From Candidatus Poribacteria bacterium (GTDB lineage Bacteria > Poribacteria > WGA-4E > WGA-3G), in NCBI GenBank assembly GCA_965197475.1, contig CBDANF010000003.1, forward strand, positions 2,976,001-3,040,000: a stretch of 64,000 bases of DNA, in the 5' to 3' direction. The first letter of the stretch is position 1. Every line of letters begins with the position of its first letter. A program made the position numbers and the translations under genes. Shown here piece by piece: positions 49,869-57,370 of this stretch. The notes below the pieces were generated by a model. That model was not told the DNA's origin, did not search any database, and was given only the letters and a program-made list of their open reading frames with translations.

Positions 49869-49982
49869 TCATTCCTTAAACGAAGCAGTAACCCGTGGAA
49901 TACTCTCCTCACAGGCAAACCGTTCGATGCTGGATGCACCAACAAACCCAACGGTATCTGTATTCTCATTGATATATGCAGC
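49869..49982 (-). repeat. 114-bp copy of the TIM-barrel gene 3' end (copy 2)
   Basis: 105/114 identical to 56549-56662 by manual comparison. Confidence 0.95.
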
Positions 49983-50007
49983 AACCATTTTAGGCGTTAT
50001 TTCTCCG

Positions 50008-52851
50008 TTATTTCGTGTTTATATCCGCATCAATGCCGACGAACATACTCCATTTACCACCGCCCTGACTAACTTTAACCAGCAAAAGGTTATCTCCTGC
50101 CTTCAAACCAACCTTGAAGCTATCCTGAAAGTTTTCTGCACCACGGTTCACAGCTTTTTTATACACTACTTTACCGTTGAGCCACACCTTGATAGCGTCA
50201 TCACTTCCAGCAAACATCCTCACGTCAGACTGATCTGTATCAGATTTAAGAGTAATGAGTGCATAAGCGGAATGGTCTTTCAAGTAAAAATCATCTGCTT
50301 TAGTTCTTCTATTCTTGCCGCGAACGAAATCGATTCTATTGACAACTTCATTGACATTATTATCGCTGGTGTCAGAAATCTTTGCCCGCGTCCAAACATA
50401 ATCACCTGCGACATCGCCTGCTTTCGCTCCGTTTTCTGCCACGGTGTTTTCAGTCACAACGCCTTTACTAATGGTAGCCAGTGAATCGCTGTCAATGGAA
50501 TTTGCACCGCCTTGTCCGGGTTCAGTTGGCGCGATCATCCAGAGCCACGGACCAGCAATTTTGTCCACGTTGTAGATGAGGTGCCACATATTATGACGGA
50601 TATTAGGGCTCTTTTCAAGTAGTACTCGAATAGGGGAAAAATCTTCAATCGGATTTTGAGTTATAGATAATTCCCTTAAGTTTGTCATCTCTGCAAGCGG
50701 TTTAATATCTGTGATTTGGTTTCTATCAATCTTTAAAACACGCAAATTCTGCATTTTTGCGAGCGGACGAATGTCATGAATCTGATTCTTACGGAGATTT
50801 AAATTTGTTAAATTCGTTGCGTGTTCAATACCAGTAAGGTCGGTTATACCTTGATCACTGACATCAAAATTTCCGTGCGTATTAAGTCCGACTAAGTTTA
50901 GCATATCCAATTGCGTAATGGCAGATTCTGGAGACAATTTCAAAGCTTTGCGCACCGCAGCCGCTAAATTGGCATCCGGTATTGAGATTGCTTTAGGTGG
51001 TGGCAGCAGAGAAGTCATGGTGATTGGAAACTTCTGTACGGTAAAATATCCATGCTTATCTATGACTCGAAGCCGTACAGAAGTCGCCTTAGGTGTTAAC
51101 CGCGTTGTGACGAATTCAACCGTGCTTTTTTCACCGTTCAAGGCTTTAAAATCCTGCAATTTTGAGAAAGGAGATTTATGAGATTCGGCGATAAGGAATT
51201 GTACCTGATGGAGTCCATCGGGGTCAGTTATGTCAAATTGGAAACGTATACCGTTAGCCTCATCTTCGCGTGTTGGGGTAGCCATCTGAATTGTCGTGGG
51301 TTGGTTGAGGCCAGTTATGTGAGAATTGAAATAGCGATGTACATTCAACCACTGTGCGGCACAGAAAGATGTCGACATCGGTTCAGTTGAATATAAATCT
51401 ATCCACGGTTTCAAATTGTTGCGATAGTCGTGTGATAATCCAAACGCATGTCCGAGTTCGTGGACGGTCACATCACTTTCATCAAAGCAGTAACCTGAAG
51501 CGGGGATGACTACTGTTCCGCCAAAATCACCGCGGTGTTCGCCAAATCCGCATGCGAAACCATCAAGGAGTTCTATGCTACTATCTAAAGCAGCAAGATA
51601 GATGTTGTCATAGGTATCGAACTGTTTATCAATTTCATCCCATATCTTCATGGACTTTTTTTGATAATATTTATCTGGGAACTTGCCTTTTACATGATGT
51701 ACGACCACATTTCCAGAAGGATCAGTTTCAAACTTAAAGGTTTTCCTACCGAATCCGTGGTATTCCATCTGTGAGGCGAAAATTTGCTGTACCTTCTTTA
51801 TTAATTTATCTAACTTTGCATCTATATCAGGTTGAGGGGAGCGGTCACTTGGGATGAAGTAGATTAAGCGGACAGTATTTGGTTCGCTTTGTGATTTTTT
51901 ACTTTCCATGATCTTCTGGACACGGAGTGTTCCATCATCAAGACCGCTACTTGCGATGGTGGTTCCGTCCAGTGAGAAGGCTGCTTCCATAACCCAACCG
52001 GTGTATCCTGTAATTGCAGTGATTTTTTTACCGTTTTCAACAGACCAAATGCTTACTTCTGCATAACTAGCACTGGCGAGACTCTTACCGTCCGGCGAAA
52101 AGGCGAGATCGAATACCGAAGTAACCTGTTTAATGCTACCGACTACTTTCCAATTTGACACCGACCATAGTTTGATATTCCCTTCCCTACCTGCACCGGC
52201 AAAGGTTTGACTATCTGGTGAAAAGGCAATAGCATCGATCCAGATTTTATCACATTCCAACCGGGCAATAACTTGTCGTTTCTCAACATCCCAAATTTTT
52301 ATATGTTTTCCATCTACGGCGGCGAGAAGTTGCCCATTCGGTGAAAAAACGACTGCAAGCACCCAGTCATCATGTTTAAATGTTCCGATCTCATTATGGT
52401 TATCAACATCCCATAATTTCACACTAATGTATCCTGCACTCGCGAGGGTGTGTCCATCAGGTGAAAATGCTAAAGAAGTGATATTTGATGGTCCAAAACC
52501 ACCGAAACTATGTTTTAACGTGGCAATATTTTGTTTACGATGGACATCCCAAAGCTTCAAGACACGGTCATCGCTACCACTCGCGAGTAATTTTCCATCC
52601 GGAGAGAATGCTACAGTATTAACTTTGTCCGTATGTCCAGTAAGGGTTGTTGAGGTGTTATCCTGTAAATTCCATATTTTAACGGTGTGGTCATCACTGG
52701 CACTGGCAACAAGCGAGGCATCCACAGGTGAGTATTCGACCGCTTGGATAGAACCACCATGTTTAAGAACTGTGGGTTGCTGTGCCAAACCAGAGAAACA
52801 AAAATTCAATAAGAGCGCAAAAAGAACAAGTAAAAACTTATTTGATTGCAT
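50008..52851 (-). CDS. Secreted WD40, zinc metallopeptidase, internalin-type LRR and C-terminal beta-domain protein (paralog A)
   Basis: Signal peptide MQSNK..., WD40 repeats, HELGHAFGLSHD, IPDANLAAAVR LRR cap, LxxLxLxxNQI repeats and GSDDAIKVWLNG. Confidence 0.88.
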   Translation of the reverse strand: MQSNKFLLVLFALLLNFCFSGLAQQPTVLKHGGSIQAVEYSPVDASLVASASDDHTVKIWNLQDNTSTTLTGHTDKVNTVAFSPDGKLLASGSDDRVLKLWDVHRKQNIATLKHSFGGFGPSNITSLAFSPDGHTLASAGYISVKLWDVDNHNEIGTFKHDDWVLAVVFSPNGQLLAAVDGKHIKIWDVEKRQVIARLECDKIWIDAIAFSPDSQTFAGAGREGNIKLWSVSNWKVVGSIKQVTSVFDLAFSPDGKSLASASYAEVSIWSVENGKKITAITGYTGWVMEAAFSLDGTTIASSGLDDGTLRVQKIMESKKSQSEPNTVRLIYFIPSDRSPQPDIDAKLDKLIKKVQQIFASQMEYHGFGRKTFKFETDPSGNVVVHHVKGKFPDKYYQKKSMKIWDEIDKQFDTYDNIYLAALDSSIELLDGFACGFGEHRGDFGGTVVIPASGYCFDESDVTVHELGHAFGLSHDYRNNLKPWIDLYSTEPMSTSFCAAQWLNVHRYFNSHITGLNQPTTIQMATPTREDEANGIRFQFDITDPDGLHQVQFLIAESHKSPFSKLQDFKALNGEKSTVEFVTTRLTPKATSVRLRVIDKHGYFTVQKFPITMTSLLPPPKAISIPDANLAAAVRKALKLSPESAITQLDMLNLVGLNTHGNFDVSDQGITDLTGIEHATNLTNLNLRKNQIHDIRPLAKMQNLRVLKIDRNQITDIKPLAEMTNLRELSITQNPIEDFSPIRVLLEKSPNIRHNMWHLIYNVDKIAGPWLWMIAPTEPGQGGANSIDSDSLATISKGVVTENTVAENGAKAGDVAGDYVWTRAKISDTSDNNVNEVVNRIDFVRGKNRRTKADDFYLKDHSAYALITLKSDTDQSDVRMFAGSDDAIKVWLNGKVVYKKAVNRGAENFQDSFKVGLKAGDNLLLVKVSQGGGKWSMFVGIDADINTK

Positions 52852-52876
52852 GTGGAAGTCTCCTTTTATTAATAGC

Positions 52877-52994
52877 AAGACTTACGCAAATTTAGACTCC
52901 TTGGCGAAATTGATCGTAAATCACCGAAGAACGCGAAATGAATTGCACGACTACATATCAAATAACGCTTAAAAGAGCAACCTGCGTAAGTTTT
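52877..52994. mobile_element. MITE-like element with ACTTACGCA inverted ends
   Basis: aagacttacgca (52877-52888) and tgcgtaagtttt (52983-52994), 11/12 inverted match. A more degenerate copy lies at 53199-53313. Confidence 0.55.
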
Positions 52995-56335: not shown

Positions 56336-56420
56336 GTTGAAGTTCCTTTTATAGTAGATTTTAGAATTACTTGGACATTGTTATCGGTCCAGTTGGGAAA
56401 CAGTTCCTACCGCATATTTT

Positions 56421-56475
56421 GTAGCACAAACTTTTAGTTTGTGTCGTCCTTGCGCAAACTGAAAGTGGACGCTAC
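56421..56475. repeat. GTAG-type REP pair
   Basis: gtagcacaaacttttagtttgtg ... cgcaaactgaaagtggacgctac, an imperfect inverted pair. Confidence 0.5.
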
Positions 56476-56548
56476 AGCAGTGTCCAGATAATTACAGATT
56501 TTACTATAATAGATTGAAAATCATGCTGTAATTTATATCATCCGATTT

Positions 56549-57370
56549 TCATTCCTTAAACGAAGCCGTAACCCGCGGAATACTCTCCTCACAAGCAAAC
56601 CGTTCGATGCTGGATGCCCCTACAAACCCTACGGCATCAGTATTCTCATTGATAAATGCAGCCTCCGGTGCTTTTGAGATAGGACCACCGTGTGACAAGC
56701 AGATCACATCAGGATTCTGTGCCTTCGCAGCATCACAAATTTCTTGCACTCGGACTGCTGCGTCTTTGAGTGTAAAAGCGGTTTCAGCACCAATTGTGCC
56801 ACCAATCGTAGTACCCATGTGTGCAATAATAACGTCCGCGCCGACCTTTGCCATATTCTCAGATTCTTCGGGGTTAAAGACATAGACGATGGTAAACAGA
56901 TCCATCTCATGTGCGATGCCGATTGTCTCAACCTCTTTATAGAACCCCATTCCTGTTTCTTCAAGGGTCACCCGAAAAGTGCCATCAATCACGCCAACGG
57001 TAGGAAAGTTATTGACACCATCAAAACCTACATCCCGAATCTGCTTAAGAAAGTTACTCATTCTTCGTGTAGGATCGGTACCGTTCACGCCAGCGATTAC
57101 CGGTGTTTCCTTCACAACAGGTAAAACTTCTCGTTCACCCATTTCCATCACGATGGCGTTTGCATCACCGTACGCCAAAAGCCCAGCGCATGATCCAAAC
57201 CCTGACATCCTGTAGCGACCAGAGTTGTAAATCACAATCAGATCCGCGCCACCTTTTTCCGCAAATTTCGCAGTGATACCTGTTCCTGCACCGACAGCAA
57301 GCAAGGATTTACCTTTATCTAACTCCGATTTGAGTCGATCTAACACCTCATCTCGTGTATAATCTGGCAT
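56549..57370 (-). CDS. Phosphoenolpyruvate hydrolase family / Tm-1-like TIM-barrel protein
   Basis: GAGTGITAK, IYNSGRYRM, AYGDAN, NFPTVG, HGGPI and GASSIER. Confidence 0.88.
   Translation of the reverse strand: MPDYTRDEVLDRLKSELDKGKSLLAVGAGTGITAKFAEKGGADLIVIYNSGRYRMSGFGSCAGLLAYGDANAIVMEMGEREVLPVVKETPVIAGVNGTDPTRRMSNFLKQIRDVGFDGVNNFPTVGVIDGTFRVTLEETGMGFYKEVETIGIAHEMDLFTIVYVFNPEESENMAKVGADVIIAHMGTTIGGTIGAETAFTLKDAAVRVQEICDAAKAQNPDVICLSHGGPISKAPEAAFINENTDAVGFVGASSIERFACEESIPRVTASFKE

What the first reader, a model, noticed from the sequence alone, without database searches (positions are those of the whole stretch)
49869..56662. Integrase-free tandem cassette array delimited by copies of a host gene's 3' end
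Seen: the last 114 bp of the TIM-barrel gene (56549-56662) recur at 53359-53472 (112/114) and 49869-49982 (105/114). Each extra copy sits exactly 25 bp after the stop of a WD40-metalloprotease-LRR gene, through a near-identical linker. The minus-strand order is host gene, paralog B, 3' copy, paralog A, 3' copy. Seven of the 9 differences in the distal copy are synonymous (AAYINENTDT vs AAFINENTDA), so it looks like a once-functional gene end. The two cargo proteins are much more diverged than the two proximal repeats. Established: integrative elements restore a target gene by carrying its 3' end. Inference: successive integrations at one site within a protein gene, with the distal copy as the displaced original end. 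No integrase is visible in the array, so these may be minimal cassettes mobilised in trans or by homologous recombination, building an expandable array of secreted eukaryote-like repeat proteases.
Basis: partly seen in the sequence, partly recalled or inferred. Interest (0 to 1): 0.82.

Follow-up and report, generated by a model that had tools for sequence, protein, structure and literature searches.

The report
Recombination scars flanking duplicated protease genes
The repeated gene ends are real, but each is fused to the first five codons of the neighbouring purL gene, so they look like leftovers of one old accidental DNA join later copied by ordinary recombination, not a new kind of mobile gene cassette.

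Summary
The last 114 bp (X) of the PEP_hydrolase-like TIM gene recur at 53359-53472 (112/114) and 49869-49982 (105/114), each 25 bp after a WD40-metzincin-LRR gene.

The cassette reading is mostly not supported. The 25-bp "linker" is the ribosome-binding site and first five codons of purL, which is the conserved neighbour on the far side of a variable hotspot. In 9 related genomes the protease gene P sits directly before a purL start. Each extra X therefore begins at one illegitimate join, J (purL codon 5 | TIM codon 237, in frame).

J carries its own derived bases (AAAATGGTT) in all 4 copies and in none of 17 native purL starts. It occurs in 3 of 40 genomes of the genus (Candidatus Poribacteria). 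The distal X runs on into a Type ISP restriction gene exactly as the intact TIM gene does in G006.

PB is the ortholog of the closest relatives' P. PA is a diverged allele. The genome shows one tyrosine and no serine recombinase.

Best reading: one illegitimate join, then unequal homologous recombination and gene conversion between the repeats, inside a defence-island hotspot. Interest is modest.

The parts
56549..57370 (-). TIM gene (PEP_hydrolase-like, 273 aa), intact; left core flank of the hotspot
   Evidence: PF09370 1-266/267, 383 bits. Found in 24 of 24 same-genus genomes searched, at 92-97% aa identity.
56549..56662 (-). X1: native last 114 bp of TIM (codons 237-273 plus stop)
56349..56509 (-). 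about 161-bp small repeated element inside the 213-bp TIM-to-PB spacer
   Evidence: 13 further copies at 99-100% identity in the genome
53498..56335 (-). PB: signal peptide, WD40 propeller, metzincin-type HELGHAFGLAHD motif, LRR and an unassigned C-terminal domain (945 aa). Ortholog of the P gene of G003 and G020.
   Evidence: 94.8% aa identity to G003 P. Clade with G003 and G020 at 100/100.
53473..53497 (-). J (unit B): P-to-purL spacer with ribosome-binding site GGAGAAA, ATG and purL-derived codons 2-5. Illegitimate join to TIM codon 237.
   Evidence: Alignment with the P-to-purL junctions of G016, G014, G013 and G010 and with 16 native purL starts.
53359..53472 (-). X2: copy of the TIM end, 112/114 to X1. 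With J it forms a 42-aa open frame.
   Evidence: 0 synonymous and 2 non-synonymous differences from X1
52879..53358 (-). 480-bp X2-to-PA spacer. It contains two families of small repeats. 444 bp (52871-53314) are skipped in one low-depth metagenome contig.
   Evidence: (table 5; one contig, depth 4.9)
50008..52878 (-). PA: diverged paralog or allele (listed from TTG; likely ATG at 52851). Its last ~185 bp switch to PB-clade-like sequence.
49983..50007 (-). J (unit A): same junction, with ATG changed to ACG
49869..49982 (-). X3: TIM end of a TIM-ISP type haplotype (105/114 to X1; protein identical to the genus consensus)
45007..49868 (-). 38-bp spacer plus Type ISP restriction-modification gene (1607 aa). 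Hotspot cargo, colinear with X3.
   Evidence: Pfam Mrr_cat_2, ResIII, ISP_coupler, N6_Mtase and Type_ISP_C. PADLOC REase_MTase_IIG, 1902 bits. Spacer 40/40 identical to G006.
40703..43099 (-). purL (true start MSNKV at 43099); right core flank of the hotspot and source of the J sequence
   Evidence: TIGR01736, 616 bits against a cut-off of 525.75. Conserved start and ribosome-binding site in 16 genomes.

Best explanation
The locus is a variable hotspot between two core genes, TIM (PEP_hydrolase-like) and purL-purQ, in a Candidatus Poribacteria genome.

Shown:
- In relatives the gap between TIM and purL ranges from 84 bp to more than 23 kb. It holds a resident secreted WD40-metzincin-LRR gene (P), defence cargo (Type ISP restriction-modification, type I-D CRISPR-Cas, AAA/Schlafen-type genes), both, or nothing.
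- Each extra copy of the TIM end is fused in frame to the ribosome-binding site and first five codons of purL. All four such junctions (J) known, in three species, share derived bases that no native purL start has. J therefore arose once.
- The J-linked X always continues into what follows an intact TIM in P-less haplotypes.

Inferred:
- J was made by a single illegitimate join. The favoured route is a homology-facilitated illegitimate insertion of a foreign [TIM 3' end - ISP island - purL] fragment into a TIM-P-purL chromosome at purL codon 5. The alternative route is a tandem duplication of the segment from TIM codon 237 to purL codon 5.
- Afterwards the 114-bp X copies and the conserved last ~185 bp of P served as substrates for ordinary RecA-type recombination. 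A misaligned (unequal) exchange between X copies of two diverged haplotypes stacked a second unit. This gave TIM-PB-J-X2-PA-J-X3-ISP.
- Gene conversion then homogenised the P 3' end-J-X blocks and made X2 nearly identical to X1. Loop-out between X copies can delete units without a scar.

No site-specific recombinase is needed.

The practical outcome is two diverged secreted eukaryote-like proteases in tandem, plus two non-functional TIM-end relics. Each relic sits in a 42-aa chimeric open frame of unknown and probably no function.
For: (1) Origin of the linker.
- The linker matches the P-to-purL junction. G016 has the same bases from the P stop through the ATG, then continues as purL. G014, G013 and G010 show P directly before the purL start.
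- 16 native purL starts share the ribosome-binding site plus the ATG-TCC-AAT-AAG-GT motif.
- purL identity: TIGR01736 at 616 bits.

(2) Single origin of J.
- AAAATGGTT is present in 4 of 4 J copies (G000 twice, G021, G044). It is present in 0 of 17 native starts (16, plus G016).

(3) Distribution of J.
- A J-spanning match occurs in 3 of 40 genus genomes.
- A degenerate J pattern hit only G021 and G044 among 185,579 species representatives.

(4) Continuity beyond the distal X.
- The X3 spacer is 40/40 identical to the G006 TIM-to-ISP spacer.
- The sequence after the G021 X2 is homologous to that after TIM in G008, G022 and G019.

(5) Hotspot.
- The gap is 84 bp in G018 and 200 bp in G012. It reaches 23-24 kb in G003 and G020.
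- Cargo was annotated.

(6) Not a recent local duplication.
- PB groups with the P genes of G003 and G020 (100/100).
- An AU test rejects a PA+PB clade (p = 0.0005).
- PA switches to PB-clade-like sequence about 185 bp before its stop.

(7) Recombination between the X copies.
- X2 shares G000-specific bases with X1 (112/114).
- Each J-linked X is closer to some native end than to the other J-linked copies.

(8) Relics of the same kind elsewhere in the hotspot.
- purL 5' fragments are duplicated in G013 (nt 1-172 and 1-168) and in G002 (nt 1-93).
- ISP 3'-end remnants lie just after TIM in G008, G022, G019 and G017.

(9) Recombinases and DNA uptake.
- One PF00589 match about 960 kb away and no PF00239 match.
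- ComEC and DprA homologs are present. This is weak support, because these families also match in non-competent control genomes.
Against: - The order of events cannot be reconstructed uniquely. At least one unequal exchange and two conversion tracts are needed to explain G000.
- The P genes next to J are not one clade. The G044 P groups with those of G050 and G055, and PA groups with the G021 P only at 86/78. Extra allele swaps must therefore be assumed.
- The join shows little or no microhomology (0-1 nt, by eye), which is less than is usually reported for homology-facilitated illegitimate recombination.
- The same junction in three different downstream contexts, together with 0/1/2 copy-number variation, is also what a mobile unit would give.
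- Natural transformation is not shown for this uncultured group.
- 10 of the 40 genus genomes were judged only from the search and not from fetched loci.
- The AU-test grouping was tested after the tree had been seen.
Confidence: 0.72

Rival explanations
1. Integrase-free mobile cassettes. In this reading, circular units of about 3.2-3.5 kb carrying their own copy of the TIM end integrate site-specifically at GCTGCA in TIM. They would be mobilised in trans, and each would push the previous end downstream.
For: - Direct repeats of a gene 3' end flank each unit.
- Relatives have 0, 1 or 2 units and there are empty sites.
- The same boundary occurs in three species with different downstream contexts.
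- The distal copy is colinear with what follows an intact TIM in other genomes.
Against: - The boundary is a fusion to the purL start codons and ribosome-binding site. That is not expected of an attachment site.
- P sits natively between TIM and purL without extra X in 10 genomes.
- PB is the vertical ortholog of the P gene in G003 and G020.
- X occurs nowhere else in the genome.
- No inverted repeat lies in or beside X among the 13 inverted pairs listed.
- The genome gives one tyrosine and no serine recombinase match.
- The junction pattern had no hit in the JGI metagenome contigs.
Confidence: 0.05
2. A purely local tandem duplication within the G000 lineage (replication slippage or sister-chromatid unequal crossover), followed by divergence of the two copies in place.
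For: - The units are head to tail. The novel junction joins the end of the segment (purL codon 5) to its start (TIM codon 237). This is the classical signature of a tandem duplication.
- Without their repeat-element insertions, the X-to-P spacers would be about 50-65 bp, as in the native TIM-to-P spacing of G014.
Against: - PA and PB are about 76% identical, while PB is 94.8% identical to the P gene of G003.
- A PA+PB clade is rejected.
- J is shared with G021 and G044, so it predates G000 or was imported.
- The last unit is followed by X3-ISP and not by purL.
- An ancient tandem duplication as the origin of J in some ancestor is not excluded. It is included as the second route in the best explanation.
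Confidence: 0.1
3. An assembly artefact: the repeat structure is created by mis-joining reads of co-existing strains in a metagenome-assembled genome.
For: - The genome is a MAG with 6.97% estimated contamination (header).
- Related strains with other arrangements co-occur in public runs (loose ends).
Against: - The units differ by about 20-25% in sequence, so they are not collapsed or expanded copies.
- The same J junction stands in a closed 5.34-Mb chromosome (G021) and in a 32.7-kb contig of G044.
- Contigs of other runs bridge the ISP-X3 and PA-spacer-X2 boundaries with 0-1 differences (records 24 and 19). These runs may include the source sample.
Confidence: 0.03

Closest known systems
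Homology-facilitated illegitimate recombination (HFIR) during DNA uptake. The mechanism is described in passages of PMC5361080, which cites de Vries & Wackernagel 2002, Prudhomme et al. 2002 and Meier & Wackernagel 2003. I also saw the abstract start of PMC3240628.
   Same: One side of an insertion is anchored by homology in a conserved gene, and the other side is a non-homologous join. This leaves a partial duplicate of the flanking gene. Here, a 15-nt purL start is fused to a 114-bp TIM end next to foreign ISP cargo.
   Different: The process was not observed here, only inferred from its scar. Microhomology at the join is minimal. The scar has since been duplicated and spread to other haplotypes.
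Orphan arrays built by sequential displacement. Examples are the Vibrio cholerae T6SS immunity-gene arrays and Rhs C-terminal displacement (PMC5361080, passages read).
   Same: An array without an integrase grows at one locus. Old gene ends or partners are pushed downstream and kept. The units are more similar to other strains' genes than to each other. The mechanisms proposed there are homologous recombination and HFIR.
   Different: Here the displaced pieces are non-functional ends of a housekeeping-type gene, not immunity genes or toxin tips. The cargo is a secreted repeat protease. Only two units are present.
Core-gene-flanked defence hotspots (Johnson et al. 2023, PMC10250203; I saw only the search listing and the start of the abstract).
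   Same: The flanking core genes are conserved (TIM; purL-purQ). Cargo is highly variable and includes restriction-modification and CRISPR-Cas. Empty sites exist in some relatives.
   Different: This is a different phylum. The hotspot also houses a non-defence resident gene (P). Relics of both flanking genes document how the insertions happened.
Integrative islands that target and restore the 3' end of a gene, and integron cassette arrays (from my own knowledge of these families, not from a call).
   Same: Direct repeats of a gene's 3' end bracket the inserted material, and successive units lie head to tail.
   Different: There is no integrase in or near the array. There is no attC-like inverted repeat. 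The repeat boundary is a fragment of another gene, not a crossover core.

Membership tests
Integrase-mediated integrative element at a gene 3' end | A site-specific recombinase encoded in the element, or available in trans | tested here: not met
   No recombinase ORF or domain lies in 45007-57370. The genome-wide search gave one PF00589 match at C3:2069666, about 960 kb away, and no PF00239 match. The genome is 92.7% complete.
Integrase-mediated integrative element at a gene 3' end | Direct repeats (attL/attR) made of the duplicated target end, whose inner boundary is the crossover site | tested here: not met
   The repeats exist. However, the boundary is a fusion to the purL ribosome-binding site and codons 1-5.
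Integron cassette array | An intI gene with attI next to the array, and attC imperfect inverted repeats at each cassette end | tested here: not met
   No integrase is present. None of the 13 inverted-repeat pairs found lies in or beside an X copy.
Homology-facilitated illegitimate recombination product | A non-homologous join of two unrelated sequences beside a homologous anchor, leaving a partial duplicate of the anchor-side gene | tested here: met
   J joins purL codon 5 to TIM codon 237. The intact purL and TIM flank the region. Analogous purL 5' fragments occur in G013 and G002.
Homology-facilitated illegitimate recombination product | The inserted DNA is foreign to the recipient lineage | tested here: inconclusive
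   X3 plus its spacer matches the G006 type, and ISP is 88% identical to that of G006. Vertical retention followed by loss in G003 and G020 is not excluded.
Homology-facilitated illegitimate recombination product | Arises during natural transformation or another uptake of linear DNA | not testable with these tools
   ComEC and DprA homologs are present. These families also match in non-competent control genomes.
Tandem segmental duplication / amplification by unequal crossover | Head-to-tail units with a novel junction that joins the segment end to the segment start | tested here: met
   The unit runs from X through the spacer and P to the first 15 nt of purL. J is the join of that end to that start.
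Tandem segmental duplication / amplification by unequal crossover | The units are each other's closest relatives (recent, in situ) | tested here: not met
   PB groups with the P genes of G003 and G020 at 100/100. The AU test rejects a PA+PB clade at p = 0.0005.
Core-gene-flanked defence hotspot | The same two conserved flanking genes across relatives, with variable cargo that includes defence systems, and empty sites | tested here: met
   The TIM and purL flanks are found together in 23 of the 30 genus loci fetched. In the other 7, purL was not reached within the stretch fetched. Gaps range from 84 bp to more than 23 kb. Cargo includes ISP restriction-modification, type I-D CRISPR-Cas and AAA/Schlafen-type genes.

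The most novel reading that the evidence does not exclude
The P 3' end-J-X block may have become a portable homology module. Any chromosome with a TIM gene could then take up another X-spacer-P-J unit by plain homologous recombination, using TIM on one side and X on the other. Sponge-symbiont populations would in that way build and trim arrays of diverged secreted WD40-metzincin-LRR proteases without any integrase. This would be a recombination-only functional analogue of a cassette system. A further possibility is that the in-frame 42-aa purL/TIM chimeric open frames, which keep a ribosome-binding site, are expressed.
Probability: 0.15. Interest if true: 0.6.

Novelty: new member of a known kind. 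Interest (0 to 1): 0.3.

Why it matters
The case shows how a structure that looks like an integrase-free cassette array can arise from one illegitimate join followed by ordinary homologous recombination. The deciding clue was a 25-bp linker that turned out to be the start of the next core gene.

For Poribacteria, which are uncultured sponge symbionts rich in eukaryote-like WD40 and LRR proteins (PMC3909097, passages read), it documents three things:
- a concrete hotspot between TIM and purL-purQ where defence systems and a secreted repeat protease are exchanged among species;
- physical relics (TIM ends, purL starts, ISP ends) that record the exchange mechanism;
- a way in which diverged alleles of a host-interaction candidate gene come to sit side by side.

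It does not open a new class of mobile element.

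Tried and rejected
- Public runs. Six runs held 9-13% of the sampled words, four of them labelled sponge metagenome.
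- Contigs laid on the window. The four runs laid (X7, X8, X10, X11) are short Logan contigs from mixed strains. They cannot show circles, copy number or absence. The many short "skips" between the two P genes have sides of 19-32 nt, and I take them as cross-matches between paralogs.
- Junction patterns. Two degenerate junction patterns found nothing in the JGI metagenome contigs. This does not show absence, because the matches are exact-only and records near the window's genome may be left out.
- ESM Atlas. It gave no usable hit for PB.
- Earlier notes. There were none for this genome.
- Family searches. PADLOC found no defence family for PA or PB beyond a WD40-type match. NCBIfam found nothing for the P C-terminal 200 aa, for TIM or for the 319-aa ORF. 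Pfam found nothing for the 319-aa ORF.
- Promoter and terminator scan. It gave no excess over shuffles: 20 against 18.8 promoter-like sites and 5 against 6.3 terminator-like sites.
- IMEX-type use of the single Xer-like recombinase. I rejected this without a test, because X lies inside a gene and no dif-like site was sought.
- Not attempted. I did not try a full step-by-step history of the G000 array, because several routes fit equally well. I predicted no structure.

Full report
**1. Observation**

The repeat is real and is not chance.
- The repeat finder reports a three-copy family at 49867-49982, 53357-53472 and 56547-56662.
- Base-by-base counting gives 112/114 for X2 and 105/114 for X3 against X1, the last 114 bp of the gene at 56549-57370.
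- The gene at 56549-57370 is a full-length PEP_hydrolase-like protein (PF09370, 383 bits).
- X occurs only these three times in the 5.70-Mb genome.
- Each extra copy starts 25 bp after the stop of a ~950-aa gene, PB (53498-56335) or PA (50008-52878). The two linkers differ at one base.
- X3 differs from X1 by 7 synonymous and 2 non-synonymous changes.
- PA and PB are about 76% identical.
They are 90-97% identical, against 65-88% for the gene bodies.

**2. The genes**

P has five recognisable parts:
- an N-terminal signal-peptide-like segment (by eye);
- a WD40 propeller (PF00400, 153-163 bits);
- a zincin region with HELGHAFGLAHD at residue 462 (473 in PA). I recognise the HEXXHXXGXXH pattern as the metzincin signature from memory. 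The Pfam peptidase hits are all below their cut-offs;
- internalin-like LRRs;
- a ~190-aa C-terminal domain with no family hit.

Downstream of X3 lies a 1607-aa Type ISP restriction-modification enzyme. After it come a 319-aa ORF without family hits, then purL (TIGR01736, 616 bits) and purQ. Upstream of TIM are a sulfatase gene and a PhyH gene.

Record titles returned for two related loci name Candidatus Poribacteria MAGs. WD40 and LRR proteins are reported as highly abundant in that phylum (PMC3909097, passages read). The own genome gives 327 matches to PB.

**3. The locus in relatives**

TIM is present in 24 of 24 same-genus genomes first searched. I fetched about 16-36 kb around it from 29 genus genomes, plus four genomes of other genera in the same order and one extra contig.

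The backbone PhyH-sulfatase-TIM ... purL-purQ is conserved, but the TIM-to-purL gap is not:

| Genome(s) | TIM-to-purL gap | Content |
|---|---|---|
| G018 | 84 bp | empty |
| G012 | 200 bp | empty |
| G019 | about 1 kb | not annotated (short ORFs only) |
| G002 | about 1.4 kb | purL 5' fragment, short ORFs |
| G014, G010, G051, G053 | about 3 kb | P alone |
| G055 | 4.1 kb | a 289-aa ORF, then P |
| G003, G020 | 23-24 kb | type I-D CRISPR-Cas (Csc2, Cas4-Cas1, WYL regulator), then P |
| seven genomes | more than the stretch fetched | purL not reached |

Other cargo found in the gap:
- Type ISP genes in G006 and G024, and a version in G044 that lacks the N-terminal nuclease-helicase part;
- AAA-ATPase plus Schlafen/HATPase_c_4 genes in G008, G024 and G021.

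This is a core-gene-flanked hotspot rich in defence cargo. It is comparable to those described for Pseudomonas aeruginosa (PMC10250203; I saw only the listing and the start of the abstract).

P is present at the locus in 13 of 40 genus genomes. In 9 of them it lies directly before a purL start:
- G003, G020, G014, G010, G016, G051, G053 and G055;
- G013, where what follows P is a purL fragment.

**4. What the linker is**

I aligned the DNA after the P stop in seven P genes.
- In G016 the same bases follow the stop (TAACGGAGAAATAATGCC...), and the sequence then continues as the purL coding sequence.
- In G014, G013 and G010 the P stop is likewise followed by the ribosome-binding site and ATG of purL.
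- 16 native purL genes share this ribosome-binding site and the start ATG-TCC-AAT-AAG-GT (MSNKV).

The 25-bp linker is therefore the P-to-purL spacer plus purL codons 1-5. X begins immediately after, at TIM codon 237 and in frame.

The result is a 42-aa open frame of MPKMV plus 37 TIM residues. At X3 the ATG has become ACG, and in G021 it has become TTT.

I call this junction J. It joins the right end of the segment [TIM codon 237 ... P ... purL codon 5] to its left end.

**5. J arose once**

- All four J copies (two in G000, one each in G021 and G044) read AAAATGGTT where native purL has AAT-AAG-GTN. None of 17 native starts has this.
- A search of all 40 genus genomes with the P 3' end-J-X block found a continuous match only in G000 (twice), G021 and G044.
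- An exact degenerate J pattern recovered only G021 and G044 among 185,579 species representatives.
- The pattern recovered nothing in the JGI metagenome contigs.

**6. What lies beyond each J-linked X**

- X3 and its 38-bp spacer continue into ISP with 40/40 identity to the TIM-to-ISP spacer of G006. The ISP protein is 88% identical to that of G006.
- In G021, the DNA starting about 10 bp after X2 is homologous to the DNA starting about 8 bp after TIM in G008, G022 and G019. That DNA includes a ~135-bp remnant of an ISP 3' end.
- In G044, X2 is followed by such a remnant and by the ISP gene that lacks the nuclease-helicase part.

Every J-linked X, except the internal X2 of G000, therefore stands where an intact TIM end stands in ISP-type haplotypes.

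X3 encodes exactly the genus consensus peptide, with 6 synonymous and 0 non-synonymous differences. For comparison, the G021 X2 has 7 and 6, and native ends overall have 307 and 54.

**7. The two units of G000 are not a recent local duplication**

- In a maximum-likelihood tree of 13 P proteins (G016 left out because its gene is split; last 65 residues removed), PB groups with G003 and G020 at 100/100. PA is a deep branch, weakly joined to the G021 P at 86/78.
- An AU test rejects a PA+PB clade (p = 0.0005; the grouping was tested after I had seen the tree).
- G003 and G020 are also the closest genomes for the flanking genes:

| Gene | aa identity to G003 | aa identity to G020 |
|---|---|---|
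| TIM | 97.4% | 96.3% |
| sulfatase | 98.5% | 96.8% |
| purL | 96.5% | 95.8% |

- In G003 and G020, P is followed by a longer native linker and then purL. There is no J.
- About 185 bp before its stop, PA changes from G021-like divergence to near identity with the PB/G020 type. This marks a recombination or conversion breakpoint.
- X2 carries G000-specific bases of X1 (for example the Phe codon), and its only 2 differences from X1 are non-synonymous. It therefore looks copied or converted from the resident TIM end recently.
- The unequal spacers are explained by insertions. The 213-bp spacer holds a ~161-bp element that has 13 further 99-100% copies in the genome. The 480-bp spacer holds two other repeat families. 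444 bp of it are skipped in one low-depth metagenome contig.

**8. Mechanism**

Shown:
- J is a fusion of two core-gene fragments with a single origin.
- The locus is a hotspot.
- The X copies and the P 3' ends carry recombination and conversion signatures.
- No recombinase is nearby. The genome has one PF00589 match about 960 kb away and no PF00239 match.

Inferred:
- One illegitimate join created P-J-X. I favour a homology-facilitated illegitimate insertion of a [TIM 3' end-ISP island-purL] fragment into a TIM-P-purL chromosome, anchored in purL.
  - One reason is that the same hotspot holds analogous relics of purL starts, cut at nt 172, 168 (G013) and 93 (G002).
  - The other reason is that J-linked X copies adjoin ISP-type DNA.
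- A tandem duplication of the segment from TIM codon 237 to purL codon 5 is the alternative origin. It predicts the X2-spacer-PA arrangement directly.
- Either way, later misaligned homologous exchange between X copies of diverged haplotypes can add a unit, which is the G000 state. Gene conversion can homogenise the blocks, and loop-out can remove units without a scar.
- ComEC and DprA homologs exist, but they are not diagnostic of competence.

Loose ends of metagenome contigs read, by eye, like the G003-type long linker after PB-like and PA-like genes (table 7). This suggests that related strains without J co-occur.

**9. Comparison with known systems**

- The closest described parallels are homology-facilitated illegitimate recombination and the orphan arrays attributed to it and to homologous recombination. 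These are the V. cholerae T6SS immunity arrays and Rhs C-terminal displacement (PMC5361080, passages read).
- The locus fails the tests for an integrase-borne island and for an integron. There is no recombinase and no attC-like inverted repeat. The boundary is a fragment of purL.
- It meets the structural definition of a tandem-duplication junction, but not the expectation that the units are recent sisters.

**10. Verdict**

The displaced end, the copy-number variation and the absence of an integrase all hold. The mobile-cassette idea is replaced by a single recombination scar that has been propagated by homologous recombination in a defence-island hotspot.

This is a new instance of a known kind of event. 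It is instructive, but not a new class of element. Interest is 0.3.

The boldest reading still open (about 0.15) is that the P 3' end-J-X block now works as a portable homology arm. Populations could then stack diverged secreted protease genes without any integrase.

Noticed in passing
window 43811-43989 and 45089-45187 (minus strand): About 100-180 bp of the 3' end of the Type ISP gene recur downstream of the 319-aa ORF (84% over 99 bp). That ORF is therefore bracketed by two copies of the upstream gene's end, the same pattern as X-P-X. Solitary copies of this ISP-end remnant lie just after TIM in G008, G022, G019 and G017.
   Followed up: partly
window 56349-56509: A ~161-bp element in the TIM-to-PB spacer has 13 further copies at 99-100% identity across the genome. 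It looks like a recently active MITE-like repeat. One copy lies at C3:2070504-2070669, about 320 bp after the genome's only tyrosine-recombinase match (C3:2069666-2070181).
   Followed up: partly
L050 (G013) 5753-5940 and 7216-7441; L055 (G002), at 3052-3154 counted with TIM on the + strand (L055 as stored is the reverse complement): Partial duplicates of the purL 5' end (nt 1-172, 1-168 and 1-93) lie upstream of the intact purL. They are the mirror image of the TIM-end relics.
   Followed up: partly
L047/L077 (G003) and L048/L078 (G020): The two closest relatives carry a 20-kb type I-D CRISPR-Cas system (Csc2, Cas4-Cas1 fusion, WYL regulator) in the same TIM-purL hotspot, between TIM and P.
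   Followed up: partly
window 36756-38477 (minus strand): A UvrD-like helicase has a GIY-YIG nuclease domain matched at residues 133-206, inside the helicase N-terminal domain match (3-381).
   Followed up: no
whole genome G000: PB gives 327 matches in the own genome, mostly WD40 propellers. Its ~190-aa C-terminal domain recurs at 42-55% identity in at least 8 other proteins. No family was found for that domain.
   Followed up: no
L075 (G012 contig C42, 3212-3571): A second, diverged partial TIM copy (residues 155-273; X only 95/114 to X1) sits at the end of a 3.6-kb contig of a MAG that also has a full TIM elsewhere. It may be strain heterogeneity or another displaced end.
   Followed up: no
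L064 (G016) 2884-5725: The P gene of G016 is split into two ORFs (407 and 526 aa), so it is probably frameshifted.
   Followed up: no
window 19962-20207: A cluster of tRNA-Val(GAC), tRNA-Cys(GCA) and tRNA-Gly(GCC) genes on the minus strand.
   Followed up: no
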